The notes under the pieces were generated by a model, which searched no databases, was not told the DNA's origin, and was given only the letters and a program-made list of their open reading frames with translations. Of a stretch of 64,000 nt of DNA, positions 24,560 to 49,204 are shown piece by piece. The stretch lies in IMG/VR virus record IMGVR_UViG_3300005573_001011, positions 32,001-96,000 of that record. One strand, written 5' to 3'. This DNA comes from a virus. Each line of letters starts with the position of its first letter. Positions within the stretch are counted from its first letter, which is position 1. The position numbers and the translations under genes were made by a program.

Positions 24560-25102
24560 ATGCAAAAAACTGGGTGTACTTGCGACTCTACATGCTATAA
24601 TTTTTCCTGCTCTTGTAACACTACTTGCTATGGTTATCAAGCATGTCAGTACGGATGCGATAGTGGTTCGTACGGAGTGTCCTGTCCTTGTAATACTTCT
24701 TGCTATTCTTTTTCGTGTAGCTGTGATGCTAGGTGCCATAATTATGGTTGCACTTGCAATACGCTTTGCCATGGTTACCAAACATGTATGTACGGGTGCG
24801 ATAGTTCTTGCTATAATTATGGCAAAGCATGCGAATGTGATACGACGTGTTATGGATATGTCCCATGTTCGTGCGACAATACGCGTTACGGGTATACATG
24901 CACATGCGATGGCTGGTGCGACTCGTATACTCCTTGCTCATGCTACGGCCCAGGATATACTGTATGCACTTGCTATACGACATGTTATGGCTATTCCCCG
25001 TGCTCGTGCAATAATACGTGTTACGGATTTGTATGTACGTGCAATGCAACTTGTTACCAAGAAAGATTTGGTGCAGATGCTTTATCGTTCGAACTGTTCT
25101 AG
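24560..25102 (+). CDS. Cys/Tyr-rich repeat protein (39 Cys; about 14 CxCxxxCY-type units)
   Basis: GGAG RBS 7 nt upstream; 10 exact CxCxxxC units plus 4 variants. Confidence 0.8.
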   Translation: MQKTGCTCDSTCYNFSCSCNTTCYGYQACQYGCDSGSYGVSCPCNTSCYSFSCSCDARCHNYGCTCNTLCHGYQTCMYGCDSSCYNYGKACECDTTCYGYVPCSCDNTRYGYTCTCDGWCDSYTPCSCYGPGYTVCTCYTTCYGYSPCSCNNTCYGFVCTCNATCYQERFGADALSFELF

Positions 25103-35791: not shown

Positions 35792-38700
35792 ATGCTTATC
35801 CAAACTTTTGCCAGAGGGCTTTCTGGTTATAGTGGTTATTCTGGAATAGCTGGTACGGCAGCTAGCTCAGGTTACTCTGGAATTTCTGGATATAGCGGGT
35901 ACTACGGATATTCTGGATATTCTGGCATAAGTGGTTATAGTGGTATTGAAGGAGCGGAAGGCTTAAGTGGATACAGTGGTTTCTCTGGGTATTCAGGAGT
36001 TTCTGGTTACTCGGGTATCGAGGGCTTAGAGGGTCTGTCAGGCTATTCTGGTGTCTCTGGATATTCAGGTATTAGCGGATACTCTGGTATCTCTGGGTAT
36101 TCTGGAATAGAAGGTGCAGAAGGCTTAAGTGGATATTCAGGTATTAGCGGATACTCTGGAATCTCTGGCATAAGCGGTTATAGTGGATATTCTGGTTTAG
36201 AGGGAATCGAAGGCTTATCTGGTTATAGCGGTATTTCTGGATATTCAGGAATTTCGGGTTATTCTGGTCTTGAAGGAGCGGAAGGCTTAAGTGGTTATTC
36301 AGGAATAAGCGGTTACAGTGGTATTTCTGGCTACTCTGGGCTTGAAGGTGTAGAGGGTTTAAGTGGCTATTCTGGGATTTCTGGCTACAGTGGCTTATTT
36401 GGAATAAGTGGTTATTCGGGAATTAGCGGATACAGTGGTATCGAAGGCACTGAAGGATATTCTGGCTACAGTGGCGTAAGCGGATACTCTGGAATCTCTG
36501 GCATAAGTGGTTATAGTGGTGTTGAAGGAGCGGAAGGCTTAAGTGGATACTCTGGCATTGAAGGAGCCCAAGGATTATCTGGATATTCAGGCATTAGTGG
36601 ATACTCTGGCATTGAAGGAGCCCAAGGATTATCTGGTTATTCAGGCATTAGTGGATACTCTGGTATTGAAGGAGCTCAAGGATTATCTGGTTATTCAGGC
36701 ATTAGCGGTATCTCTGGATACTCTGGAATAAGCGGATATAGTGGAATAAGTGGTATTTCTGGATATTCTGGAGCTCAATTTGTTGGTTCTTCTGGTTATT
36801 CAGGTATTTCTGGATATTCTGGTATAAGCGGTTACTCTGGAATAAGTGGTTATAGTGGTATCTCTGGATATTCTGGAATAACTGGTATTTCTGGTTACTC
36901 AGGAATAAGTGGTATTAGTGGAATAAGTGGATACTCTGGAATAAGTGGATACAGTGGTATTTCTGGATACTCCGGAATAGAAGGTACTGAAGGGTTATCG
37001 GGTTACTCTGGTATAAGTGGGTACAGTGGAATTTCTGGCTACTCAGGAATAAGTGGTTACTCAGGGTTAGAAGGTGCTTATAGTGCTAGTGGGTATTCTG
37101 GTATAAGTGGATACAGCGGAATATCGGGTTATTCTGGGCTATCTGGTTATAAAGGTCTTAACTGGACTGGGAACTGGGACTCTACAACTACGTACTATGT
37201 AAATGACGTAGTCTATCATGAAGGCTCGTCTTACGTATGCGTGCAAGAAAATATAAATCAAGAACCGCCTAACGAAGATTATTGGCAACTTCTAGCTTTA
37301 GCTGGTGTTCCAGGTTATACTTCTCAGCAAGCCAGTATGTATCGTTCGGGGGCTAACCAACCTATTCCAAACGTTACTTGGACTAAGGTACAGCTTAACG
37401 CAATTAGTTTTGACCCTTACAATATTTGTAATGTTTCAAATTATAGAATTAAACCAACGGAAGCAGGATATTATTTAGTTGTTGGATATGGAAGTATTGA
37501 TTTAGGTAGTGGAAATGTTTTTGTTGTAGCTATTTATAAGAATGGTAGTCTATTGGTCTACGGAACGGATGTAGCTTTACAATCTGGGATAGGTTATACG
37601 AGAAGTATTGCATCGCAGATTGTTTACATGAATGGTAGCACTGACTATTTAGAACTGTGGTGTTACCAGCAGAGTGGAACTACAAGGTCACTGTTATCAG
37701 GAAGTGAAAATACATATCTATCAATAGTAAGCATTGCAGGTCCACAGGGTTCAAGCGGATACTCTGGATTAAGTGGATATAGCGGAATAAGTGGTTATAG
37801 TGGCATACAAGGATTATCTGGTTACTCTGGAATTTCTGGAATAAGCGGTTTCAGTGGATATTCTGGCTTAGAGGGAACTGAAGGTTTATCTGGTTATAGC
37901 GGTGTCTCTGGATATTCAGGTATTAGCGGTTACTCTGGAATAAGTGGTATCTCTGGATATTCTGGAGCTCAATTTGTTGGTTCTTCTGGTTACTCAGGTA
38001 TTTCTGGATACTCTGGAATAGAAGGAGTCGAAGGCTTAAGTGGATACTCTGGAATAAGTGGCTATAGTGGTATTGAAGGAGCAGAGGGCTTAAGTGGTTA
38101 TTCAGGAATTTCTGGTTACTCTGGAATAAGTGGTTACTCTGGAATTTCTGGTTACTCTGGAATAGAAGGAGTAGAAGGCTTAAGTGGCTATAGCGGTCGT
38201 TCTGGATACTCTGGCATTAGTGGCTATAGTGGTATTGAAGGCGTAGAAGGCTTAAGCGGTTACTCTGGAATAAGTGGATATAGCGGCGTCTCTGGTTACT
38301 CCGGAATAGAAGGCTTATCTGGCTACTCTGGCATAAGCGGTTACTCTGGAATAAGTGGATATAGCGGCGTCTCTGGTTACTCTGGAATAGAAGGTACAGA
38401 AGGCTTAAGTGGTTATTCCGGCATAAGCGGATATTCAGGAATTTCAGGCCTATCTGGCTATTCTGGAATAAGTGGTTACAGTGGTATTTCTGGTTACTCT
38501 GGTCTTGAAGGTGTGGAAGGCTTAAGCGGTTATTCTGGGATTTCTGGATACTCTGGAATCTCTGGATACTCTGGGATAGAAGGAGTCGAAGGCTTAAGTG
38601 GATATTCAGGTATTAGCGGATATTCTGGATATTCTGGCATAAGTGGTTATAGTGGTGTTGAAGGAGCGGAAGGCTTAAGTGGTTACTCTGGTGCAAGTGG

Positions 38701-41700
38701 ATATAGTGGTATTTCTGGTTACTCTGGAATAGAAGGCTTATCTGGGTATTCTGGTATCTCTGGTTACTCTGGGGTTTCTGGATACTCTGGTATCTCTGGA
38801 ATAAGTGGATACAGCGGAATATCGGGTTATTCTGGGCTATCTGGTTATAAAGGTCTTAACTGGACTGGGTACTGGGACTCTACAACTACGTACTATGTAA
38901 ATGACGTAGTCTATCACGAAGGCTCATCTTACGTATGCATACAAGAAAACATAAACCAAGAACCGCCTAACGAAGATTATTGGCAACTGCTGGCCCTTGG
39001 TGGGACTTCAGGTTATAGTGGGATCTCTGGGTATTCTGGTATAAGTGGATATTCAGGTATTAGCGGATACTCTGGAATAGAAGGCGCAGAGGGCTTAAGC
39101 GGATACTCTGGTGTAAGTGGATATAGTGGGGTCTCTGGATATTCAGGCATTAGTGGATACTCTGGCATTGAAGGAGCCCAAGGATTATCTGGTTACTCTG
39201 GAAGAAGTGGTTATAGTGGTATTTCTGGATACTCTGGAATTTCTGGATACTCTGGGATAGAAGGAGTCGAAGGCTTAAGTGGTTACAGTGGTATTTCTGG
39301 ATATTCTGGAATAAGCGGATATAGTGGTATTAGTGGAACTTCTGGTTACTCTGGAATAAGTGGTATTAGTGGTTATAGTGGTATTGAAGGTGTAGGAGGC
39401 TTAAGCGGTTATTCAGGAATAAGCGGTTACAGTGGTATATCTGGTTACTCTGGCATTGAAGGAGGCCAAGGATTATCTGGTTATTCAGGCATTAGCGGCA
39501 TTTCTGGGTACTCTGGAATAAGCGGTTATTCTGGTGTTTCAGGTTACTCTGGGATTTCGGGTATAAGTGGATATTCTGGGAGAAGTGGGTATAGCGGTGT
39601 AAGTGGATATTCTGGTACTTCTGGAATAAGTGGTTATTCTGGCATTAGCGGTATCTCTGGATATTCTGGAGCTCAATTTGTCGGTTCTTCTGGCTACTCA
39701 GGAATAAGCGGTTATAGTGGATGTTCTGGCATTTCTGGAATAAGCGGATATAGTGGTATTAGTGGAATAAGCGGATACTCTGGTAGAAGTGGTTATAGTG
39801 GTATTTCTGGCTACTCAGGAATAAGTGGTTATAGTGGAATAAGTGGTATATCTGGATACTCTGGTGTTTTGCCTCCTGGTTCATCAGGCCAAACATTAAG
39901 GCATGACGGCTCAAATTGGGTAGCTAACAGTTTAATTTTCAACGATGGTACTAACGTCGGTATTGGGACAACGAATCCAGGAGCAAAATTAGATGTAGAT
40001 GGCACAATTTACGGCCAGTCGATTCGCCTGAATCGTCCTGGAGACGCCTCGTATATTTATCGGGACATATCAGAAACAGGAAATATTTCTATAGAAAACT
40101 ATTGTGGTGGCATTAATTTAGAAACAGGAACTGTTGGTACTGATAGAGCAAGTCGTATTTATATCCAAAGCACCGGCAACGTTGGGATCGGGACAACTAC
40201 AGCTACTGGTAAGTTTACTATTAAGGCGAAGGACGAAACTTACACAGGCTTGTTGTATATGGAGGCAAGTGGAAGCACAAATGCTTGGAATATGGCATTC
40301 GATAGTGCAACCGCTCCTAATCTTTGGCTTCAGTACAACGGAAGCTCAACGCCAATAATGCTTTGGAGAAATGACGGTAGTGTCGGTATTGGGACGACGA
40401 GCCCAAGTAATCTTCTGCATGTCTACGGAACATCAAATATAGTCGCAAGGTTTGAAAGATTTACGAGTGGAATTGCAAATGAGGGGGCCATTGAGGTAGT
40501 TGGTAACGATGCTTCTAATAATAAATACTCTTTGTATATAGGTTCGTCTCCTTCTAAGGGGCTTATTAGGACTCTTCAAAGTGTACCATTGCATTTTGGT
40601 GTAAATAGTGGGATAAATGTAACAATAGATACCAGCGGCAACGTCGGCATCGGTACGACGGGACCAGTTGCAAATTTACATATTCAGCAGACTACAGGTA
40701 CGGGTATTTCTTTAAGACGAACGGGGGGCGAAGCAATTTTTCAGATTGTGGGAGATGGAGGTGCCAACTATTTGGCAATGGATACCGCCACGAGTAATCT
40801 TTATATTGGTGGCACTCCTACTGGAGCTGGTGGTCAGTATCCAACGATGACAGTAGGAGCAAACAATGGCAACGTCGGTATTGGGACGACGAGTCCACTA
40901 GGGAAATTGCATATAGTATATCCTGAAGTATGCATTCCCATATTTGAGAATAACTATGGTTCAGGTCTTGGTTTAAATAGAATTTTGATGAAGACTTATC
41001 TTCAAGGCTATACCTATATTGAGATGAATAGTAATAATCAAGGAACTCCTTTCTCTTGGAAAATAGGATTAACAGATAGTGCAGATAGATTCCGCATATT
41101 GAGAGAAAGTTCAGAATTTTTGTCGATATTAAATACCGGCAATGTCGGCATCGGGACGACAGAACCGGTTGGAAATCTTGATATAGAAGCTACAGCAGTA
41201 AACACTATTGGTCATTTGGTTGTTAATAGAGCAAATTATGGCGGTTTGGGTGGAGAATTAACTATTAGAAATTCAGCGGGAGGAGCTAATGCCGCAGGAG
41301 CTATTGCTTTTGAGTTAGATGGATCTACAGCTTTTGGTTCAGATGAGAGTAATGCGAGCAATGCGGAAATCAGAGCAGTTAACAATGGAATTTTAAGCAA
41401 CTCGACTGACTTGTTATTCTCTAATTGGTCTGGGAGCGCAGAAAACGTAAATATGATTATAAGATATAACGGCAACGTCGGCATTGGGACGACAGATCCA
41501 CAAGCGAAGTTGCACATAGAGGGAGGAGGTAGCGGTTATGTTTTGCGTATTGGGAGTTCGGGAGCAAGTGGAATAGTCAACTATGCTGCTGGAGGAGGAG
41601 GAACATCGACAGTTTCAGTTTTTGGGCGAGGAGGATTAGATTTTAACTGGGGTGATGCATCAGTACGAGTTTACGATACTGGAGCTACAAGATTATTAAA

Positions 41701-44700
41701 GCTTGGTGAAAATGCTGGGTCAGGACAAAATGTCCATGTAATAATGGGAATAAATGGAAATGTCGGCATTGGAACAACAATTCCAGGTGCAAAATTAGAA
41801 GTTTCTGGTGGAAATATATTAGTAACCGCAACGAGTCCAACTGTTCAGCTTAGCGGTAGTATAACGAGTGGTAGATTTGGGCAAGATAGTGTCGGTAGTT
41901 TTATTGCATCGGACACAAACAGTGCAGCATTACGTTTTCTAACCAATAATGGTTCTCTAAATGAGTGGGTGAGAATAACAGCAAATGGCAGAGTCGGCAT
42001 TGGAACGACTGGACCAACTAATACATTACATGTTGCTGGCACTTCAACCTACAATGTAGATAGTGGAATAGCTTTAAGAGTATCGGATGCAACGACAACA
42101 ACGAAAGGGATAAATATTGGTTATGACACAAATCTTGATAGGGGCTTCTTACAGGCAGGAAACTTTGGACAATATTACAGTGACTTATTATTGAATCCAA
42201 ATGCAGGCAATGTAGGTGTCGGAACGACGGCACCAAATGCTAAATTAGAAGTTGCAGGCACAATTAGAGCGACATCGTTTGCTAGTCCTCCAAGTGGTAG
42301 CGGGTCTAGCCTTGAGTTGGGTTGGAATGGAACATATGGCATAATTCAAGCCTACGATAGAACCGCAGATAGTGTAAAGCCATTGGTGCTTAATTACAAT
42401 GGCGGAAATATAATAATGATTCCTACTGGTACTGGTAACGTCGGCATTGGGGCAACGAATCCAGGAGCAAGAGTAGATATTGTTCCTTCGTCTTCGAGTG
42501 ACGTAGTTTTCAGAACCAAATCTTTGCAGTCCACCGCTCCGCTTGGAACTGAACTTGTCTCAAATGGTAACTTTTCCACGGTTCCTGACACTTCTTGGAC
42601 ATGGGGCAGTGGGTGGACACATGATACGACAAATTTAGAAGCTGACCATACGCCTGGAAATACTGCTGCTTTAACGCAAAACATTAATGTGGTTAATGGG
42701 CAGACTTATCACGTACAACTAACCATAAAAAATAGAACGGCGGGTTCAGTTACTCTTGACATAAATGGGGTTTATATTTACCTCTATAGTTCAATCACTA
42801 CTTTCGTTACTAACGGTACTTTTAGCCGCTCTCTCGTTGCTAACACGACAGGGTCGGCAACCTTGCGTATTACCCCAAGTTCCGATTTTAATGGTAGTGT
42901 AGATGATATTTCGGTCAAGCAAATTACTGGAGTTTCTCAACCCAATTTTAGTTTAGTGGATGATGCGAGTAGTGTGGTAGCTGAGTTGAGGGGGAAAAAC
43001 TCTCTTAGTAATATCGGCTTGGGAACAGATTCTCTTCGCTACAACACGACTGGTTATAGTAATTGTGCGGTAGGTACGAGTGCTCTTTATAGTAATACTA
43101 CTGGTTATGAGAATACTGCAGTAGGTACGAGTGCTCTTTATAATAACACTACTGGTTTTTTTAATACTGCGCTAGGTGCAAAAGCTCTTTATACTAATAC
43201 TACTGGTATAGGGAACTTAGCATTAGGCAGAGAGGCTCTTTTTAGTAACACTACTGGTTATTATAATACTGCAGTAGGTATGAGTGCTCTTTATAATAAC
43301 ACTACTGGTTATTATAATACTGCAGTAGGTATGAGTGCTCTTTATAATAACACTACTGGTTATTATAATACTGCGCTAGGTATAGGTGCTGGGCAGTACA
43401 TTGCAGACGGATCATCCCCTAACCAAACTTCATATAATTCTGTCTATTTGGGTTATAATACAAAAGCATCGGCTAATGGGGATACTAATGAGATAGTAAT
43501 TGGATATAATGCTACAGGAGCAGGAAGTAATTCTGTTGTTCTTGGAAACGACTCTATTACAAAGACTATATTAAAAGGCAAAGTCGGCATTGGAACGGCG
43601 GACCCCCCAGAGAAATTGACTGTCTATTCGCCATCTTCAACCGATGCTTTTATTCGTGTCTCCTCTCCAGATGGTTGTAAAGCAGGGATCAAGTTTGGTG
43701 AAGACCAGAATTCATCACAAACATGGGGACACAGAATTTTATACGATGGATATAACGATCTTGTTTTATTCCAAAATATTCGTAATACAGTAGTGAATGA
43801 GGTAATGGCTTTCGATAGTAGCAACAGGGTCGGCATTGGGACGACGAGTATGAATGTAAAGCTTGCTGTCAATGGAGCAATAGAGTCACTTACAACACCT
43901 AGCAGTGACATGAATACAGCCGGACTTATTCTAAAAGACGAAACTACCAGCGGAAGATGGCAGGTACATTCGCATGGAGACATACTTAGGATGTACAATG
44001 GTTCTATCGAAACCATTGTAGGGGAACAAACTTCAACAATACTTCTTAAGGAAAACATTGTCCCCTTAACTGGTGCCTTAGATAAAATCAAGCAATTACA
44101 CGCCATCTCCTTCAAGTTTAAGCCTGAAATTTATGGCGGAAAACAGAGTATCGGTTTTAGTGCCGAAGAGGTGAGGAACATTATACCAGAAGTCGTCACC
44201 ATGGATAAAGATGGCGTCTATCCGATTTCTATTAACTACGGGTTGTTAAGCACAGTTGCAATTCAAGGTATTAAGGAGCTTTATGGAAAAGTCAGGGGTA
44301 TTGAGACAACGGGACAAGGGAATCTAGTAATAAACCAAGGCAACGTCGGTATTGGAACGACTACTCCAGGTGGTTCATCCACAGTTGGAACGAAAGTATT
44401 GTCTATTTCCGCCGGCACAGAACCAAGTGGCGGTGTAGATGGTCAGGTAAGTCTGTTTAGCAAGGATGTTTCTAATTCTGCAGAACTCTTCGTTATGGAC
44501 GAAGCAGGAAACAAGACTCAATTAAGCCCACACCCTGGAGACTTCTTAGATAATCTACCAGTTGACGATAGGCCATATCCTTGGGCATACTTGGCTGAAA
44601 ATGAGTATCTTGGAAAGAGGATAAAAGTAGATTTAGCGGGTTTGGTGGCCGCCATAGAGAAGTTGACTGGCGAGAAGTTCATGTATATTGAAGACATTCC

Positions 44701-44941
44701 GCGACGGAATTGGGACGAAGATCAAGAAGCTCAAAGACTTGCTCGTGAGAAAGAAATACAAGCTGTCTTGCAACAGATAGCCGATCTTGAGCAGAAAATT
44801 GAATCTGAAGCAGACGCAGAAAAGAAGCAGGAATTAATCAAGCAGAAAGAGGAGATTGTCGTTCCAGAGCCTTATGTGAAGAAGAACCTGCCCAAGTGGA
44901 TAGCTGCAAGACTAAGACAGGAGCAGATGTCTGAAGCCTAA
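35792..44941 (+). CDS. Giant (3049 aa) fibre/adhesin: SGY collagen-like stalk, 2 CBM5/12-like modules, C1q-like domain, 14 GNVGIGT modules, NTTG repeats, S74-like chaperone
   Basis: Domain motifs are visible in the translation (W..TTTY...DVV...GSSYVC; Y.I.PTEAGYY; LKENI..L..AL.KI..L...GFSAEEV...INY). Confidence 0.85.
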   Translation: MLIQTFARGLSGYSGYSGIAGTAASSGYSGISGYSGYYGYSGYSGISGYSGIEGAEGLSGYSGFSGYSGVSGYSGIEGLEGLSGYSGVSGYSGISGYSGISGYSGIEGAEGLSGYSGISGYSGISGISGYSGYSGLEGIEGLSGYSGISGYSGISGYSGLEGAEGLSGYSGISGYSGISGYSGLEGVEGLSGYSGISGYSGLFGISGYSGISGYSGIEGTEGYSGYSGVSGYSGISGISGYSGVEGAEGLSGYSGIEGAQGLSGYSGISGYSGIEGAQGLSGYSGISGYSGIEGAQGLSGYSGISGISGYSGISGYSGISGISGYSGAQFVGSSGYSGISGYSGISGYSGISGYSGISGYSGITGISGYSGISGISGISGYSGISGYSGISGYSGIEGTEGLSGYSGISGYSGISGYSGISGYSGLEGAYSASGYSGISGYSGISGYSGLSGYKGLNWTGNWDSTTTYYVNDVVYHEGSSYVCVQENINQEPPNEDYWQLLALAGVPGYTSQQASMYRSGANQPIPNVTWTKVQLNAISFDPYNICNVSNYRIKPTEAGYYLVVGYGSIDLGSGNVFVVAIYKNGSLLVYGTDVALQSGIGYTRSIASQIVYMNGSTDYLELWCYQQSGTTRSLLSGSENTYLSIVSIAGPQGSSGYSGLSGYSGISGYSGIQGLSGYSGISGISGFSGYSGLEGTEGLSGYSGVSGYSGISGYSGISGISGYSGAQFVGSSGYSGISGYSGIEGVEGLSGYSGISGYSGIEGAEGLSGYSGISGYSGISGYSGISGYSGIEGVEGLSGYSGRSGYSGISGYSGIEGVEGLSGYSGISGYSGVSGYSGIEGLSGYSGISGYSGISGYSGVSGYSGIEGTEGLSGYSGISGYSGISGLSGYSGISGYSGISGYSGLEGVEGLSGYSGISGYSGISGYSGIEGVEGLSGYSGISGYSGYSGISGYSGVEGAEGLSGYSGASGYSGISGYSGIEGLSGYSGISGYSGVSGYSGISGISGYSGISGYSGLSGYKGLNWTGYWDSTTTYYVNDVVYHEGSSYVCIQENINQEPPNEDYWQLLALGGTSGYSGISGYSGISGYSGISGYSGIEGAEGLSGYSGVSGYSGVSGYSGISGYSGIEGAQGLSGYSGRSGYSGISGYSGISGYSGIEGVEGLSGYSGISGYSGISGYSGISGTSGYSGISGISGYSGIEGVGGLSGYSGISGYSGISGYSGIEGGQGLSGYSGISGISGYSGISGYSGVSGYSGISGISGYSGRSGYSGVSGYSGTSGISGYSGISGISGYSGAQFVGSSGYSGISGYSGCSGISGISGYSGISGISGYSGRSGYSGISGYSGISGYSGISGISGYSGVLPPGSSGQTLRHDGSNWVANSLIFNDGTNVGIGTTNPGAKLDVDGTIYGQSIRLNRPGDASYIYRDISETGNISIENYCGGINLETGTVGTDRASRIYIQSTGNVGIGTTTATGKFTIKAKDETYTGLLYMEASGSTNAWNMAFDSATAPNLWLQYNGSSTPIMLWRNDGSVGIGTTSPSNLLHVYGTSNIVARFERFTSGIANEGAIEVVGNDASNNKYSLYIGSSPSKGLIRTLQSVPLHFGVNSGINVTIDTSGNVGIGTTGPVANLHIQQTTGTGISLRRTGGEAIFQIVGDGGANYLAMDTATSNLYIGGTPTGAGGQYPTMTVGANNGNVGIGTTSPLGKLHIVYPEVCIPIFENNYGSGLGLNRILMKTYLQGYTYIEMNSNNQGTPFSWKIGLTDSADRFRILRESSEFLSILNTGNVGIGTTEPVGNLDIEATAVNTIGHLVVNRANYGGLGGELTIRNSAGGANAAGAIAFELDGSTAFGSDESNASNAEIRAVNNGILSNSTDLLFSNWSGSAENVNMIIRYNGNVGIGTTDPQAKLHIEGGGSGYVLRIGSSGASGIVNYAAGGGGTSTVSVFGRGGLDFNWGDASVRVYDTGATRLLKLGENAGSGQNVHVIMGINGNVGIGTTIPGAKLEVSGGNILVTATSPTVQLSGSITSGRFGQDSVGSFIASDTNSAALRFLTNNGSLNEWVRITANGRVGIGTTGPTNTLHVAGTSTYNVDSGIALRVSDATTTTKGINIGYDTNLDRGFLQAGNFGQYYSDLLLNPNAGNVGVGTTAPNAKLEVAGTIRATSFASPPSGSGSSLELGWNGTYGIIQAYDRTADSVKPLVLNYNGGNIIMIPTGTGNVGIGATNPGARVDIVPSSSSDVVFRTKSLQSTAPLGTELVSNGNFSTVPDTSWTWGSGWTHDTTNLEADHTPGNTAALTQNINVVNGQTYHVQLTIKNRTAGSVTLDINGVYIYLYSSITTFVTNGTFSRSLVANTTGSATLRITPSSDFNGSVDDISVKQITGVSQPNFSLVDDASSVVAELRGKNSLSNIGLGTDSLRYNTTGYSNCAVGTSALYSNTTGYENTAVGTSALYNNTTGFFNTALGAKALYTNTTGIGNLALGREALFSNTTGYYNTAVGMSALYNNTTGYYNTAVGMSALYNNTTGYYNTALGIGAGQYIADGSSPNQTSYNSVYLGYNTKASANGDTNEIVIGYNATGAGSNSVVLGNDSITKTILKGKVGIGTADPPEKLTVYSPSSTDAFIRVSSPDGCKAGIKFGEDQNSSQTWGHRILYDGYNDLVLFQNIRNTVVNEVMAFDSSNRVGIGTTSMNVKLAVNGAIESLTTPSSDMNTAGLILKDETTSGRWQVHSHGDILRMYNGSIETIVGEQTSTILLKENIVPLTGALDKIKQLHAISFKFKPEIYGGKQSIGFSAEEVRNIIPEVVTMDKDGVYPISINYGLLSTVAIQGIKELYGKVRGIETTGQGNLVINQGNVGIGTTTPGGSSTVGTKVLSISAGTEPSGGVDGQVSLFSKDVSNSAELFVMDEAGNKTQLSPHPGDFLDNLPVDDRPYPWAYLAENEYLGKRIKVDLAGLVAAIEKLTGEKFMYIEDIPRRNWDEDQEAQRLAREKEIQAVLQQIADLEQKIESEADAEKKQELIKQKEEIVVPEPYVKKNLPKWIAARLRQEQMSEA
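37108..38990 (+). repeat. About 185-bp near-identical direct repeat (about 37108-37290 and 38806-38990) encoding the CBM-like module
   Basis: gtggatacagcggaatatcggg...gaagattattggcaact occurs twice with few substitutions. Confidence 0.85.
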
Positions 44942-46072: not shown

Positions 46073-46966
46073 ATGAAATTTGTTTTTATCTTAACTTTGC
46101 TTGTCTTGCTTTTGGCGCCAGGTTACACTGCATCTTATGACAAATTTCACTCTCAGTTTCCAGGAGTTACTGATGAAAGAGATTTTGTCAATTTCGAAAA
46201 CTGGATTGTAGAAGTTAAGACAGTCGGTTATGCGTTGGGTATTCTTCCTGAGAAGTTTAGAGGGAAAGAGAAGAGTTGTCTGAGCATCGGAACGTTTGAG
46301 TTACAAGCGAGTGGTTTCGTTGTGCAAGGCGGGTTTATAGTGGCAGCGAACCATGTAGTCTCACCTCACTACGTTCTTATAAAGACAGATTACCACGTAG
46401 TTTGGAAAGTCCCAGTTACTAGTGTTCTTTCGAAAACTATAATTATTAATGAGTATATACCAGCTACTGTTATTTGGCAAGACGAAAAAGCGGATATAGC
46501 TGTCCTTCTCCCAGTGTACGACCGTAATATGACTCTAGAAGGAGTGTCCTTTAAGATGGAGAGTGCGGCCGTTGAGGAGGGTGATGCAGTTTCAATAGTA
46601 GTTAGAGAAGTGTTCGAAAATGGGGAGCGTGGCTCTTGGCACGAGATCAGACAAGGACGTGTTATATCGCCATATCCTCTTTCTGTATTTACTCCTGAGT
46701 TTGGAGACTTACACCTCTTAACTCAAGCTGAGTTAGAGCCAACGGACATAACTCATTCTACTACTCTCTACCCTGGAGATAGTGGCTCGCCATTAATTGC
46801 TTACAAAGAAGGCGAACCCGTAATAGTTGGTGTTGTAACTAAAATGATAGCACTTCGTGTAACTCTAACTGATGTTGTAGTCTTTTACTATGCAACAAGA
46901 ATAGACAAGGCAAAAAGATTTATTGAAGCATATATAGATTTACAGAGAAGGGAGAAAATAAATTGA
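46073..46966 (+). CDS. Secreted trypsin-like serine protease
   Basis: Signal peptide; AANHV, DIAVL and GDSGSP triad motifs. Confidence 0.85.
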   Translation: MKFVFILTLLVLLLAPGYTASYDKFHSQFPGVTDERDFVNFENWIVEVKTVGYALGILPEKFRGKEKSCLSIGTFELQASGFVVQGGFIVAANHVVSPHYVLIKTDYHVVWKVPVTSVLSKTIIINEYIPATVIWQDEKADIAVLLPVYDRNMTLEGVSFKMESAAVEEGDAVSIVVREVFENGERGSWHEIRQGRVISPYPLSVFTPEFGDLHLLTQAELEPTDITHSTTLYPGDSGSPLIAYKEGEPVIVGVVTKMIALRVTLTDVVVFYYATRIDKAKRFIEAYIDLQRREKIN

Positions 46967-48417
46967 AGTTAGATTTTCCAATTAGGTCCTGTACTATTGA
47001 CTTAACTGAAAGATGCAACCTACGATGTAAGTACTGCTTTACTTATGGAGTGGGCAAGCGAGATTTAACTTTCGAACAAGGAAAAAAGACTATCGATTGG
47101 TTATTCCGCGATGAAGTAAGTCAAGCCGACGACATTAGTATAGATTGGTGGGGGGGTGAGCCTTTCTTAAAGTTTGACTTGATGAGACGCTTGAGTGACT
47201 ATGTTTTAGAGAAAGCACATAAGACTAGGAAAAGAGTAATGATGGGTGGGACATCTAACGTTACTCTGTGGACACCAAAAGTAATCGATTGGATGAATAA
47301 CCATAACATCTATTTCCTAATGTCTATAGACGGCGTTGGCGCAGCACAAGATACATTTAGACCGATGGCAGGGAAGAAAAAGAGCAGTTGGAACGTAATA
47401 AAGAGAAGATTGCCGTATATCGTTAGTAAGATTCCGTTTATAAAGTCTAGATCATCCCCTGCACCAGCAACGATACATCTTTTTGCAGATTCAGTAAAAG
47501 AGCTCTATAATACTTACAAGCTAAAAGACCAAACGTTTTCTCCAGTCTTCGAGATGGAGTGGACTGACGATAAACTCAAGATAGCGAAAGAGCAGTTATT
47601 TGCACTAGCTGATTTCATGATTGAGTTAGCGAAGAAGAGTGAAAGACTAGCAGTTAAGCATTTTGACGATGGAGCAGCAAAGCTTGAAACGGGATCAATA
47701 AAACCAGAATGGCCATGTGGAGCTGGGAGGTTCTACGTTGGTATCGGTGTCGATGGATACATTTATCCATGTCATCGGTTTAATAAGTATGATCGGCCTG
47801 TAAGTGAGAAGTACTGTATTGGTAGTATAGACGAAGGAATTACTAGACCAGACTTAAGAGAACCGTTCTTAAAATTCTTAGACTTGGCACCTCCAGAGAA
47901 GTGCAAAAACTGTAAGTGGTACGGTAGAACGTGCAATATCGGCTGCTATGCTATTAACTTTGACTTAACTGGAAGCATCTTCACTCCTGGAGAAAATCAT
48001 TGCAGATGGATGGAAGTGCAAGGTGAAGCTATTGAATACTTTTACAAGAAAATTAAAGAAAATAATCTACCGCTTCCAAAACCGGCTTTTCCACAGCCAC
48101 AAATAGGAGGAATGAGAATGGCAGGGTCATGTATATGCAACAATATGTGTTACTTAGAGGGAACTGAGAGAGAAGTAAAGACAGTAGACTGGTCTACAGG
48201 ATTCGCTTGTCAGTGCTATAACACGAACTACGCTGGTGGTTTAGCAGACCAAGCAAGGCAATTAACTCAAGAAGAGATGCTAAAGATTTCACCTCGTCCA
48301 GCTAGTCAGTATGAGCTATTACAGAAGTTGGTAAACAGACTAGACGAAATGCAAGAGACTAACAAGCAGCTTCTTGATGTGATTACGAAGCTCGCAAGTT
48401 CGTTAGCAGAAAAGTAA
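46963..48417 (+). CDS. Radical SAM/SPASM maturase with Cys-motif C-terminal extension
   Basis: CNLRCKYC, GGEP, SIDG; SPASM CGAG...YPCHRF...CKNC.....CNIGC...C; tail CICNNMCY and CQCYNTNY. Confidence 0.9.
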   Translation: MKLDFPIRSCTIDLTERCNLRCKYCFTYGVGKRDLTFEQGKKTIDWLFRDEVSQADDISIDWWGGEPFLKFDLMRRLSDYVLEKAHKTRKRVMMGGTSNVTLWTPKVIDWMNNHNIYFLMSIDGVGAAQDTFRPMAGKKKSSWNVIKRRLPYIVSKIPFIKSRSSPAPATIHLFADSVKELYNTYKLKDQTFSPVFEMEWTDDKLKIAKEQLFALADFMIELAKKSERLAVKHFDDGAAKLETGSIKPEWPCGAGRFYVGIGVDGYIYPCHRFNKYDRPVSEKYCIGSIDEGITRPDLREPFLKFLDLAPPEKCKNCKWYGRTCNIGCYAINFDLTGSIFTPGENHCRWMEVQGEAIEYFYKKIKENNLPLPKPAFPQPQIGGMRMAGSCICNNMCYLEGTEREVKTVDWSTGFACQCYNTNYAGGLADQARQLTQEEMLKISPRPASQYELLQKLVNRLDEMQETNKQLLDVITKLASSLAEK

Positions 48418-48442: not shown

Positions 48443-49204
48443 ATGAAAGTGAAATTACTCGTACTAGCAGCTATCTTCTTAGCTGTTAGTCCTTTCCAAG
48501 TAGAAGGACAGGATAAAATCCCAGCACAAAAGCCATGTCCGAAAACTACAATGGTCACCGATTGCTTGAAATGTCATGCTGTCGGTACATTTAAAGTTAT
48601 CAGACCCCCGTCTGCTTTTTCTCACGTTGAGTTTCCTGTTGCTATGGAGTTAAGGCAGAGTGAAGACGGGAAAGTATACGGAATTTACAGACTACGAGAC
48701 GTTAATGCAGACGAAGTAGATCGGTTCCTCTATTTCCTGAAGAGTGCAGGCATCAAGCATGCTGTAATCGAAATTTTCAGTCCCGGAGGTAGTCTCTTCG
48801 GTGCTCAAAAGATAGTTGCTCACATGGAAGAGTTCCAAAATTCTGGAGGAATTGTAGAAACTAGAATATATGGAGCTGCCTTGTCAGCTGGTTTCTACAT
48901 ATTTGTAGCAGGAACTAAAGGGTACAGATTTGTCCACCCGGATGCTGAGCTGATGTGGCATGAGCTAATATCTTTAGAAGGAGTTGGATTTGTCTTTAAA
49001 ACTCCATCGGACTCCGAAGAGAGATCTAGGATCTTAAGACATCTTCAAGACGTTAGAAATTCGTATTTAGCTGCGAGGTCGAAAATAACTAAAGAAAAGC
49101 TTGACGAAATGGTTAGAAAAAGAGAGTGGTGGATGACGGGAAAAGATGCTATAAAGTATGGCTTTGCCGACGGCTACATTGGCATTAGCTCTAATAAAAA
49201 GTAA
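48443..49204 (+). CDS. ClpP-like (S14) peptidase with signal peptide and CxxCH motif
   Basis: SPGG, ALSAG, MWH and 'WMTGKDAIKYGFAD'; N-terminal CLKCH. Confidence 0.8.
   Translation: MKVKLLVLAAIFLAVSPFQVEGQDKIPAQKPCPKTTMVTDCLKCHAVGTFKVIRPPSAFSHVEFPVAMELRQSEDGKVYGIYRLRDVNADEVDRFLYFLKSAGIKHAVIEIFSPGGSLFGAQKIVAHMEEFQNSGGIVETRIYGAALSAGFYIFVAGTKGYRFVHPDAELMWHELISLEGVGFVFKTPSDSEERSRILRHLQDVRNSYLAARSKITKEKLDEMVRKREWWMTGKDAIKYGFADGYIGISSNKK

What the first reader, a model, noticed from the sequence alone, without database searches (positions are those of the whole stretch)
46963..48417. Viral radical SAM/SPASM maturase carrying its own CxCxxxCY substrate-like tail with an internal start
Seen: after a complete SPASM domain and a Pro-rich linker, the ORF continues with CICNNMCY and CQCYNTNY. 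This is the motif repeated about 14 times in the Cys-rich protein at 24560, some 22 kb away. A perfect AGGAGG (48105-48110) lies 7 nt before an in-frame ATG (48118), so the 99-aa tail (MAGSCICNNMCY... plus a coiled coil) could be translated separately or be a fused former precursor gene. Known: rSAM/SPASM enzymes install thioether (sacti/ranthipeptide) or aromatic crosslinks on Cys-rich peptides. Inference: this is a phage RiPP-like maturation system with one cis substrate and one trans substrate.
Basis: partly seen in the sequence, partly recalled or inferred. Interest (0 to 1): 0.9.

Follow-up and report, generated by a model that had tools for sequence, protein, structure and literature searches.

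The report
Phage cysteine-stapling enzyme with substrate-like tail
A phage enzyme of the kind that staples cysteine-rich peptides carries a small look-alike of its probable target, a cysteine-repeat tail-fibre protein, at its own end; this look-alike is an old, conserved part of the enzyme family, and its job is still unknown.

Summary
ORF 46963-48417 is a radical SAM/SPASM enzyme. Its nearest relatives are thioether-forming maturases (CteB, PapB), but it has no RRE and falls below every curated family cut-off. After a Pro-rich linker it carries CICNNMCY and CQCYNTNY, then a helix.

In the 119-kb phage the strict motif occurs only there and in the 14-unit protein at 24560. AGGAGG lies 7 nt before the in-frame ATG at 48118.

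- **Trans substrate: well supported by association.** 14 of 16 non-redundant related viral loci have a Cys-array protein within 10 kb. Some arrays sit inside tail-fibre J or collar-fibre proteins. None of 62 control loci has one.
- **Recent fusion: not supported.** 116 of the 120 best homologues carry at least one unit, and 94 carry both. The tail has its own invariant residues and does not follow the partner's motif. It was cut down or lost repeatedly while the partnership remained.
- **Self-modification, metal binding or docking:** not resolved here.
- **Internal start:** the SD+ATG is seen only in the window and its one close relative with DNA, and in 0 of 10 distinct distant relatives.

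This scan has already reported phage rSAM plus Cys-repeat-fibre pairs on other DNA.

The parts
46963..48417 (+). radical SAM/SPASM enzyme, 484 aa, CteB/PapB-like core without an RRE, plus a C-terminal tail
47014..47037 (+). CNLRCKYC, the CxxxCxxC radical SAM cluster motif (C18, C22, C25)
   Evidence: (invariant in 30 of 30 rows)
47716..48003 (+). SPASM region with seven conserved Cys (C252, C270, C314, C317, C324, C328, C347)
48067..48111 (+). Pro-rich, variable linker (LPLPKPAFPQPQIGG)
   Evidence: low pLDDT from residue 377
48105..48110 (+). AGGAGG inside the ORF, encoding part of Ile-Gly-Gly
   Evidence: an equivalent AGGAGG is present in L081
48118..48120 (+). in-frame ATG (Met386), a candidate internal start for a 99-aa product
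   Evidence: A Met lies within 8 aa before the first tail Cys in 11 of the 13 rows P0001-P0015 that are in A2
48130..48153 (+). tail unit 1, CICNNMCY (C390, C392, N394, C396, Y397)
48154..48207 (+). conserved spacer LEGTEREVKTVDWSTGFA (E399 and E404 nearly invariant)
48208..48231 (+). tail unit 2, CQCYNTNY (C416, C418, Y423)
48307..48411 (+). C-terminal amphipathic helix (residues 449-483)
   Evidence: pLDDT 81-93. A helix-like end is kept in tail-less relatives
24560..25102 (+). 180-aa protein of 14 CxCxxxCY-type units, the probable trans substrate, at the end of the fibre-gene block
   Evidence: The neighbouring ORF 21457-22671 matches baseplate and fibre PHROGs

Best explanation
ORF 46963-48417 is the enzyme half of a two-gene phage module. 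One gene is a CteB/PapB-like radical SAM/SPASM enzyme without a leader-binding RRE. The other encodes proteins that carry arrays of CxCxxxCY-type units. In relatives these arrays are built into tail-fibre proteins. Here the array is the 180-aa protein at 24560.

The enzyme most likely installs thioether (ranthionine-type) cross-links in these arrays in the reducing cytoplasm, where disulfides cannot hold a virion part together. I put this at about 0.75.

The C-terminal tail is an integral, ancient module of the enzyme family. It has two array-like units, a conserved acidic spacer and a terminal helix. It is flexible, usually kept, and repeatedly trimmed or lost. This much is shown by the sequences.

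My preferred mechanism for the tail is a tethered, substrate-like segment that reaches the enzyme's own catalytic pocket. There it would be cross-linked itself, or would occupy the pocket and the open iron of auxiliary cluster I until a fibre array displaces it. I put this at about 0.35, ahead of each single rival.

In the window's own sub-clade an internal SD+ATG may also yield a free 99-aa tail protein. I put this at about 0.35.
For: Enzyme type:
- Pfam Radical_SAM and SPASM match above their cut-offs.
- The best NCBIfam match is PapB ranthipeptide maturase, 208 bits, model positions 2-329 of 330.
- A family profile matches CteB at E 9e-63 and the fold matches CteB at TM 0.62-0.71.
- There are seven SPASM Cys. 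The CrpC paper reads the same count as leaving one iron of AuxI free for a substrate Cys.

Partnership:
- Of the window's ORFs, only the rSAM (18 of 18) and the Cys-repeat protein (9 of 18 by blastp) recur in the 18 related viral loci.
- By motif count and by reading the ORFs, 14 of 16 non-redundant loci hold a Cys-array protein within 10 kb. The two without one are fragments rated 14% and 27% complete.
- None of 62 loci around distant rSAMs has an ORF with 2 or more motifs.
- Arrays lie inside central tail fibre J homologues (E 4e-35 and 5e-40) and inside a tail collar fibre protein.

Tail is integral:
- C390, C392, N394, C416, C418 and Y423 are invariant in 30 rows at 31-57% identity. The same six positions are conserved in 90 or 91 of 92 rows.
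- Of 120 homologues, 94 have the two-unit tail and 22 others have at least one unit.
- On a core-only tree the full tail lies on both sides of the deepest split.

Substrate-like and flexible:
- Both units out-score all 165 control CxC 10-mers on a partner-unit matrix.
- Unit number varies from 0 to 3.
- Residues 377-430 have pLDDT 33-59 despite their conservation, much like the array protein itself at 33.
- C396-x-x-E399 resembles the C-X-X-Q/D donor-acceptor spacing noted for CrpA. This link is my inference.

Internal start:
- AGGAGG followed by an in-frame ATG 3-4 codons before the first tail Cys is present in both DNAs of the near clade.
- A Met there is the only conserved residue of a variable linker in 11 of 13 near-clade proteins.
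Against: - No chemistry was tested. Thioether formation is inferred from family resemblance, and every curated family cut-off is missed.
- The tail motif does not follow the partner's motif. Partners of CxCxxxCN or CxxCDxxC type go with an unchanged CxCxNxCY tail. A co-evolving cis substrate would not be expected to behave this way.
- Its own invariant non-Cys residues (N394, E399, E404, R432) fit a small folded or metal-binding element equally well.
- Enzymes without tail Cys still sit next to Cys-array proteins (L011, L013, L015, L017). The tail is therefore not required for the partnership.
- AlphaFold gave no docked pose for the tail.
- The internal SD+ATG is absent from all 10 distinct distant relatives whose DNA I could read, shown in 12 rows that include two duplicate pairs. 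It is not significant within this genome alone.
- Here the partner gene is 22 kb away, not adjacent.
Confidence: 0.5

Rival explanations
1. The tail cysteines bind a metal: a fourth Fe-S cluster or a zinc site. The site would stabilise the enzyme or pass electrons, and the likeness to the array units would reflect only a shared metal-binding Cys spacing.
For: Five conserved Cys (C390, C392, C396, C416, C418) sit with conserved non-Cys residues in a segment of about 45 aa. The motif stays the same while partner motifs vary. That CxC pairs are typical of metallothionein-type sites is recalled, not tested.
Against: Unit number varies from 0 to 3, and several relatives keep only two Cys. Starred branches on the core tree force at least 8 changes of tail state, which is odd for a needed cofactor site. 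AlphaFold gives pLDDT 33-59 with 92 aligned sequences. No Pfam, NCBIfam or Atlas match to a known metal domain was found.
Confidence: 0.25
2. The tail is a docking or assembly adaptor. It would replace the missing RRE, with the array-like units and the terminal helix pairing with the fibre array or holding the enzyme on the nascent fibre. The tail itself would not be modified.
For: There is no RRE: the profile match starts at CteB residue 96. The terminal helix is kept even where the Cys units are lost. One partner (L013, 136 aa) ends in a similar helix. The CrpC paper argues for domain-domain engagement of a protein substrate.
Against: Tail-less enzymes keep their partners. Partner proteins have unrelated N- and C-terminal domains. 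There is no direct evidence of binding.
Confidence: 0.2
3. The tail is a recently fused precursor gene that is still translated on its own, within a RiPP pathway. The flanking exported peptidases would process the product, and the pathway would yield modified peptides.
For: A perfect SD lies 7 nt before ATG 48118, and the same is seen in L081. Short tail-only protein calls exist in public data, some on contigs of 8-40 kb. The ORF is flanked by a Trypsin_2 and a ClpP-like gene, both with signal-peptide-like N-termini.
Against: The tail is family-wide and old. No SD+start is present in the 10 distinct distant relatives. The peptidase genes recur in 0 of 18 related loci, and the ClpP-like one matches head maturation proteases. 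Partners are fibre proteins of up to 781 aa without a common leader. Several of the short calls are plainly truncated calls; for example P0129 is identical to the end of P0009.
Confidence: 0.1
4. The likeness of the tail to the array units is a coincidence of Cys-rich sequence and means nothing.
For: The motif is short, and the internal AGGAGG+ATG is within chance for this genome.
Against: The strict motif occurs in only two ORFs of a 119-kb genome. It is conserved in 94 of 120 homologues. Both units beat all 165 control 10-mers. The enzyme clade and the arrays travel together.
Confidence: 0.02

Closest known systems
CteB / CteA (SCIFF, thermocellin) of Clostridium thermocellum, PDB 5WGG and 5WHY
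   Same: It is the closest solved structure, with profile E 9e-63 over query 9-364 and Foldseek TM 0.62-0.71. Both are rSAM plus SPASM enzymes that form thioethers. That a substrate Cys ligates AuxI in the CteB structure is recalled, not read here.
   Different: CteB has an N-terminal RRE (residues 1-95 lie outside the match), and the phage enzyme has none. The TIGR03974 score is 135 against a cut-off of 425. CteB has no CxCxNxCY tail and acts on a short leader-core peptide.
PapB / PapA (freyrasin) ranthipeptide maturase family, NF047865
   Same: It is the best curated family match, at 208 bits across nearly the whole model (2-329 of 330). That it acts on repeated Cys motifs with Cys-X3-Asp thioethers is recalled; only the listing and abstract of PMC12373016 were seen.
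   Different: The match is below the cut-off of 340. The target is a small peptide rather than a fibre protein. There is no tail.
CrpC / CrpA of Methanococcus voltae (TIGR04463; Dieter et al. 2026, PMC13692751; abstract and sections 8 and 14 read)
   Same: An rSAM/SPASM enzyme with seven SPASM Cys installs ranthionine links in a repeat-rich, Cys-rich protein rather than a peptide. The structure of that repeat region is also poorly predicted.
   Different: CrpC has an RRE, and CrpA has a leader-like N-terminus and 17-residue repeats. It is archaeal and cellular. The phage enzyme scores only 44 bits against a cut-off of 525 on TIGR04463. No substrate-like tail on CrpC is mentioned in the parts I read.
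Phage rSAM plus Cys-repeat fibre pairs reported earlier in this scan (e1-5379291, e1-5846371 and others)
   Same: The logic is the same: a thioether-type rSAM beside cysteine-repeat virion fibre proteins, recurring in unrelated phages.
   Different: These are unpublished AI notes on other genomes. None of the eight summaries shown mentions a tail on the enzyme. A look-up with the tail sequence returned only notes on this genome.
Anaerobic sulfatase maturase (anSME), PDB 4K36-4K39
   Same: It is the second-best structural match. It is an rSAM/SPASM enzyme without an RRE that acts on a whole protein.
   Different: That it oxidises Cys or Ser to formylglycine and makes no cross-link is recalled. 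TIGR03942 scores 53 against a cut-off of 349. It has no tail.

Membership tests
Radical SAM superfamily (PF04055) | CxxxCxxC cluster motif and a core-domain match above the gathering score | tested here: met
   C18, C22 and C25 are present. The score is 34.1 bits against a cut-off of 29.5. The motif is invariant in 30 of 30 rows.
SPASM domain (PF13186 / TIGR04085) | C-terminal seven-Cys motif for two auxiliary 4Fe-4S clusters | tested here: met
   PF13186 scores 22.4 against 21.5. TIGR04085 scores 42.5 against 27. The seven Cys are conserved. Actual cluster binding cannot be tested here.
PapB family ranthipeptide maturase (NF047865) | Whole-protein score at or above the curated cut-off | tested here: not met
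   208.4 bits against a cut-off of 340.
SCIFF maturase (TIGR03974, CteB) | Score above the cut-off, and an N-terminal RRE that binds the leader | tested here: not met
   135 bits against 425. The match starts at CteB residue 96, and the radical SAM motif starts at residue 18 of the phage protein, so no RRE is present.
TIGR04463 (CrpC-type rSAM beside Cys-rich proteins) | Score above the cut-off | tested here: not met
   44.3 bits against 525, over the N-terminal part only.
CXXX-repeat maturase (TIGR04115) | Score above the cut-off | tested here: not met
   142 bits against 350.
Thioether (sactionine or ranthionine) synthase, by function | Forms a Cys-S to carbon bond, seen as -2 Da per link and loss of a free thiol | not testable with these tools
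   Inferred only from the nearest families.
RiPP pathway | A short precursor with leader and core, leader recognition, and leader removal by a cluster peptidase | tested here: not met
   The partner here is all array with almost no leader. Partners elsewhere are proteins of 136-781 aa, some of them fibre J or collar-fibre proteins. There is no RRE. The flanking peptidases are not conserved with the enzyme.
Enzyme-partner module (rSAM clade plus Cys-array protein) | Co-occurrence across otherwise unrelated genomes, and absence around unrelated rSAMs | tested here: met
   14 of 16 non-redundant loci have a partner, against 0 of 62 control loci.

The most novel reading that the evidence does not exclude
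The maturase carries a built-in two-unit copy of its fibre substrate that it cross-links on itself, and in the window's sub-clade it also makes this copy as a free 99-aa protein from an internal start. That would make it an enzyme that is also its own first substrate. The modified tail, or the free tail protein, would then act as a primer, cap or adaptor that joins the cysteine array of the tail fibre, giving a covalently stapled, redox-independent fibre part.
Probability: 0.2. Interest if true: 0.85.

Novelty: new variant of a known kind. Interest (0 to 1): 0.6.

Why it matters
Enzymatic thioether stapling is known for small antibiotic-like peptides and, since 2026, for one archaeal protein. 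I found no paper on viruses using it on their own particle proteins. If phages do, that would be a new way to harden host-binding fibres made in the reducing cytoplasm.

The conserved substrate-like tail adds a separate question that can be tested directly: how do RRE-less rSAM/SPASM enzymes find, gate or prime protein substrates? A tethered pseudo-substrate or self-substrate would be a new regulatory principle for this large enzyme class. It would also give a compact two-part system (enzyme plus a 12-residue repeat) for protein engineering.

Tried and rejected
- **Complex prediction** on the rSAM (alignment A2) with the 24560 protein gave 'no answer': score 0.00 against a mark of 0.32, and the controls were not folded. 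It counts neither way.
- **AlphaFold on the 24560 protein** gave pLDDT 33 with no usable fold, so I did no fold search on it.
- **ESM Atlas** gave no usable hit for the tail or for the array protein.
- **NCBIfam and PHROGs** found nothing for the array protein. NCBIfam found nothing for the tail either.
- **GenBank phages (tblastn)** returned only 5 distant, unannotated records at no more than 27.5% identity.
- **GTDB genomes** returned only a few short MAG contigs at 30-38% identity in scattered taxa. These look like mis-binned phage and gave no host clue.
- **The metagenome scan** returned one close relative, L081.
- **Standalone tail genes.** P0127, P0128 and P0150 were not found in IMG/VR. 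So I could not decide whether the short tail-only proteins are split genes, interrupted ORFs or truncated calls.
- **An eighth SPASM Cys in tail-less enzymes.** I read the sequences for one that might compensate for the missing tail and saw no consistent pattern.
- **Eukaryotic 'cysteine-rich repeats' linked to phage attP** (PMC7379824, abstract and section 5; bioRxiv 10.64898/2026.06.07.730663, abstract and section 11). Their HMM logo runs to at least 31 positions and the preprint's search returned no viral hits, so I dropped them as unrelated.
- **The flanking peptidases as pathway members** were rejected: they recur in 0 of 18 related loci.
- **Papers.** Four full-text searches found no paper on a phage rSAM acting on fibre cysteine repeats or on a substrate-like tail. 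The library lacks most subscription journals, and supplementary files (for example the CrpA homologue list of PMC13692751) were not opened.
- **Rows left out of the tree**: P0005, P0009, P0068 and P0118 (long or fused forms), P0069 and P0093 (end soon after SPASM), and L012 (motif not found by my script). L007, L016, L017 and L018 were not entered.
Full report
**What is there**

The window is part of a 119,080-bp virus record. ORF 46963..48417 on the + strand encodes 484 aa from a TTG start that overlaps the stop of the upstream gene. Homologues begin MKKLDFP at the same place, which supports this start.

Residues 14-150 match Radical_SAM and residues 252-318 match SPASM, both above Pfam's cut-offs. 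The CxxxCxxC motif (C18, C22, C25) starts at residue 18, so there is no room for an N-terminal RRE.

After the last SPASM cysteine (C347) and a helix comes a Pro-rich linker, then CICNNMCY (C390-Y397). An 18-residue spacer rich in Glu follows, then CQCYNTNY (C416-Y423), then a helix to the end. AGGAGG at 48105-48110 lies 7 nt before the in-frame ATG at 48118 (Met386), and 99 codons remain.

The protein at 24560..25102 has 39 Cys in 180 aa. It has 9 strict C.C...C[YFH] motifs and 14 units counting degenerate ones. All the coordinates and sequence features in the finding are correct.

**Is it more than chance?**

In the whole genome the strict motif occurs only in these two ORFs. I built a position matrix from 157 units of partner arrays and scored only the positions other than the CxC anchor.
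- Tail unit 1 scores 11.2 and unit 2 scores 1.1.
- Array units average 17.7 (sd 7.3).
- The 165 CxC-anchored 10-mers from other ORFs of the window and of 18 related loci reach at most 0.5.

The AGGAGG+ATG is a different matter. The genome has 46 AGGAGG on the + strand. Of these, 19 sit at real starts, 20 have no start codon behind them, and this is the only one followed by an in-frame ATG deep inside a long ORF. My rough estimate is that one to three such cases would arise by chance, so it is not significant on its own.

**What kind of enzyme**

- The best curated match is the PapB ranthipeptide maturase family, at 208 bits over model positions 2-329 of 330. Next come the nif11, CXXX-repeat, QhpD and SCIFF maturases. 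All are far below their cut-offs.
- A profile of 92 family members matches CteB (5WGG/5WHY) at E 9e-63, aligning query 9-364 with CteB 96-447. This leaves out CteB's N-terminal domain.
- The AlphaFold model of the core is confident (pLDDT above 90 for most of residues 1-372). It superposes best on CteB (TM 0.62-0.71) and then on anSME.
- Seven SPASM cysteines are conserved.

So it works like a thioether-forming SPASM maturase, but it is not a member of any curated family.

**The partner**

I fetched relatives from IMG/VR. L001-L018 are true relatives at 31-37% identity. L019-L080 surround distant rSAMs and serve as controls.

When every window ORF was compared with every ORF of the 18 loci, only two recurred widely: the rSAM (18 of 18) and the Cys-repeat protein (9 of 18). 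Two other window ORFs each matched one locus (L012). The trypsin-like and ClpP-like neighbours matched none.

By motif count and by reading the ORFs, a Cys-array protein lies within 10 kb in L001, L003, L004, L005, L006, L008, L009, L011, L012, L013, L014, L015, L017 and L018. That is 14 of 16 non-redundant loci, since L016 duplicates L003 and L007 duplicates L006. The two without one, L002 and L010, are fragments rated 27% and 14% complete. None of the 62 control loci has an ORF with two or more motifs.

The arrays vary in form: CxCxxxCY, CxCxxxCN, and CxxCDxD in an 88-Cys protein in L015. In L006 and L011 they sit inside homologues of central tail fibre J (E 4e-35 and 5e-40). In the L004 phage one sits in a tail collar fibre protein.

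In the window the array protein follows genes that match baseplate and fibre families. Other first-reader notes also place it at the end of the fibre block.

The targets are therefore virion fibre-type proteins, not leader-core peptides. This agrees with earlier follow-ups of this scan on other genomes. I treat those as leads only. The counts given here are my own.

**The tail is old and belongs to the enzyme**

- In 30 homologues at 31-57% identity, C390, C392, N394, C416, C418 and Y423 are invariant. C396, Y397, E399, E404, G425 and R432 are nearly so.
- In 92 rows the six invariant positions hold in 90 or 91 rows.
- Of the 120 best homologues, 94 have both units, 22 have another arrangement with at least one CxC....Y unit, and 4 have none. 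One sub-group carries three CxC-type units.
- Among the viral loci there are full tails (L001-L004, L009), single-unit tails (L005-L008, L014) and tails without Cys (L010, L011, L013, L015, L017). All keep a helical end.
- On a FastTree tree built from core columns only (127 rows), the full tail is found on both sides of the deepest split. Starred branches force at least 8 changes of tail state. The window sits in a 13-row clade (support 100) in which every member has the full tail. The root, placed on the long L015 branch, is uncertain.

The tail is thus ancestral or nearly so, mostly kept, and repeatedly reduced. It is not a recent gene fusion.

**What the tail might do**

*For a substrate-like role:*
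- The units resemble array units beyond the cysteines.
- Their number varies as repeats do.
- The segment is conserved yet modelled as disordered (pLDDT 33-59). The array protein behaves the same way (pLDDT 33).
- C396-x-x-E399 has the spacing that the CrpC paper reads as a thioether donor-acceptor motif.
- A seven-Cys SPASM leaves an iron on AuxI that could take a cysteine.

*Against it:*
- The tail consensus (CxCxNMCY.EGT) differs from the array consensus (CxC[ND]x[TS]CYG[YF]) and stays the same whatever the partner's motif.
- It has invariant non-Cys residues, as a small folded or metal-binding element would.
- Enzymes with no tail Cys still have array partners.

Repeated loss argues against an indispensable cofactor site but fits a regulatory, priming or docking accessory. 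I therefore rank the readings as follows:
- tethered self-substrate or pseudo-substrate, about 0.35;
- metal site, 0.25;
- docking adaptor, 0.2.

None of these was tested.

**The internal start**

The one close relative with DNA (L081, 61% identity) also has AGGAGG, 10 nt and then an in-frame ATG three codons before the first tail Cys.

In the near clade (P0001-P0015), 11 of the 13 rows in A2 have a Met within 8 residues before that Cys. It is often preceded by Gly-Gly, and the linker around it is otherwise variable. Among more distant homologues a Met there is uncommon. No SD+start is present in the 10 distinct distant relatives whose tail DNA I could read. These are L001-L006, L008, L009, L014 and L083, shown as 12 rows with the duplicates L007 and L016.

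A phmmer search of 1.84 billion representatives with the 99-aa tail gave 26 hits, mostly rSAM C-termini. It also returned short proteins that begin at the same Met (P0127 and P0128; P0150 came from the cluster look-up). Some lie on contigs of 8-33 kb. Others are clearly truncated calls; for example P0129 is identical to the end of P0009.

The internal start is a reasonable hypothesis specific to this clade, at about 0.35. It is not a property of the family.

**Comparison with what is known**

The closest published system is CrpC/CrpA (PMC13692751). There an rSAM/SPASM enzyme with seven SPASM Cys installs ranthionine links in a repeat-rich, Cys-rich protein. That enzyme has an RRE, is archaeal and, in the parts I read, has no tail.

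CteB and PapB are the closest in structure and sequence, but they act on peptides. Four full-text searches found nothing on phage fibre stapling or on a substrate-like tail of a maturase. The eukaryotic 'cysteine-rich repeats' papers concern different, longer modules.

**Verdict**

The enzyme-array partnership is strong, but this scan has seen it before on other DNA. The new element is the conserved substrate-like tail, whose function is open. I class it as a new variant of a known kind, with interest 0.6.

Noticed in passing
window 48443-49204 (+): A ClpP-family protein that matches phage head maturation proteases (phrog_94, E 2.5e-20). It has a signal-peptide-like N-terminus and a CLKCH (CxxCH) motif. 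It is not conserved next to the rSAM in related loci.
   Followed up: partly
window 46073-46966 (+): A Trypsin_2 peptidase with a signal-peptide-like N-terminus. Its stop overlaps the rSAM TTG start (TTGA), which suggests translational coupling. It is absent from all 18 related loci.
   Followed up: partly
P0005, P0118; L017:1449-3119: Some homologues of this rSAM carry intein-type insertions. P0005 and P0118 have Pfam PF14890, and P0118 also has PF07591. The L017 ORF, 557 aa, has an inserted block just before the PCHRF motif.
   Followed up: no
L004 and L167 (one IMG/VR contig of 254,910 bp): One phage holds two rSAM paralogues with tails (L004:9926-11497 and L004:13629-15134). The second has CxxC in unit 1. 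The same phage holds at least three Cys-array proteins of 646, 781 and 471 aa, and the last of these is a tail collar fibre.
   Followed up: partly
L015:8530-9978: A 483-aa protein with 88 Cys in CxxCDxD-type repeats lies directly upstream of a tail-less rSAM. It shares the N-terminal ...WT.P...ELR.A.N.W... domain with several CxCxxxCY proteins.
   Followed up: no
L013:484-891: A 136-aa array protein ends in a helix (..LVDLLKKLRKN..) that resembles the terminal helix of rSAM tails. The rSAM of that locus has lost its Cys units.
   Followed up: no
own genome 117089-118078 (-), outside the window: A second ORF with a CxxxCxxC motif (330 aa), possibly another radical SAM enzyme.
   Followed up: no
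window 35792-44941 (+): A 3049-aa ORF. Its only match among the related loci is a long ORF in L012 (38% identity over the aligned part), just upstream of that locus's rSAM.
   Followed up: no
P0123, P0125, P0126; L003, L004, L009 partner ORFs: Many array proteins end in a special last unit, CxxCxxxxY.YPW[TS], and begin with a shared non-Cys domain of about 120 aa (MAQQTWT...AINAWE...).
   Followed up: no
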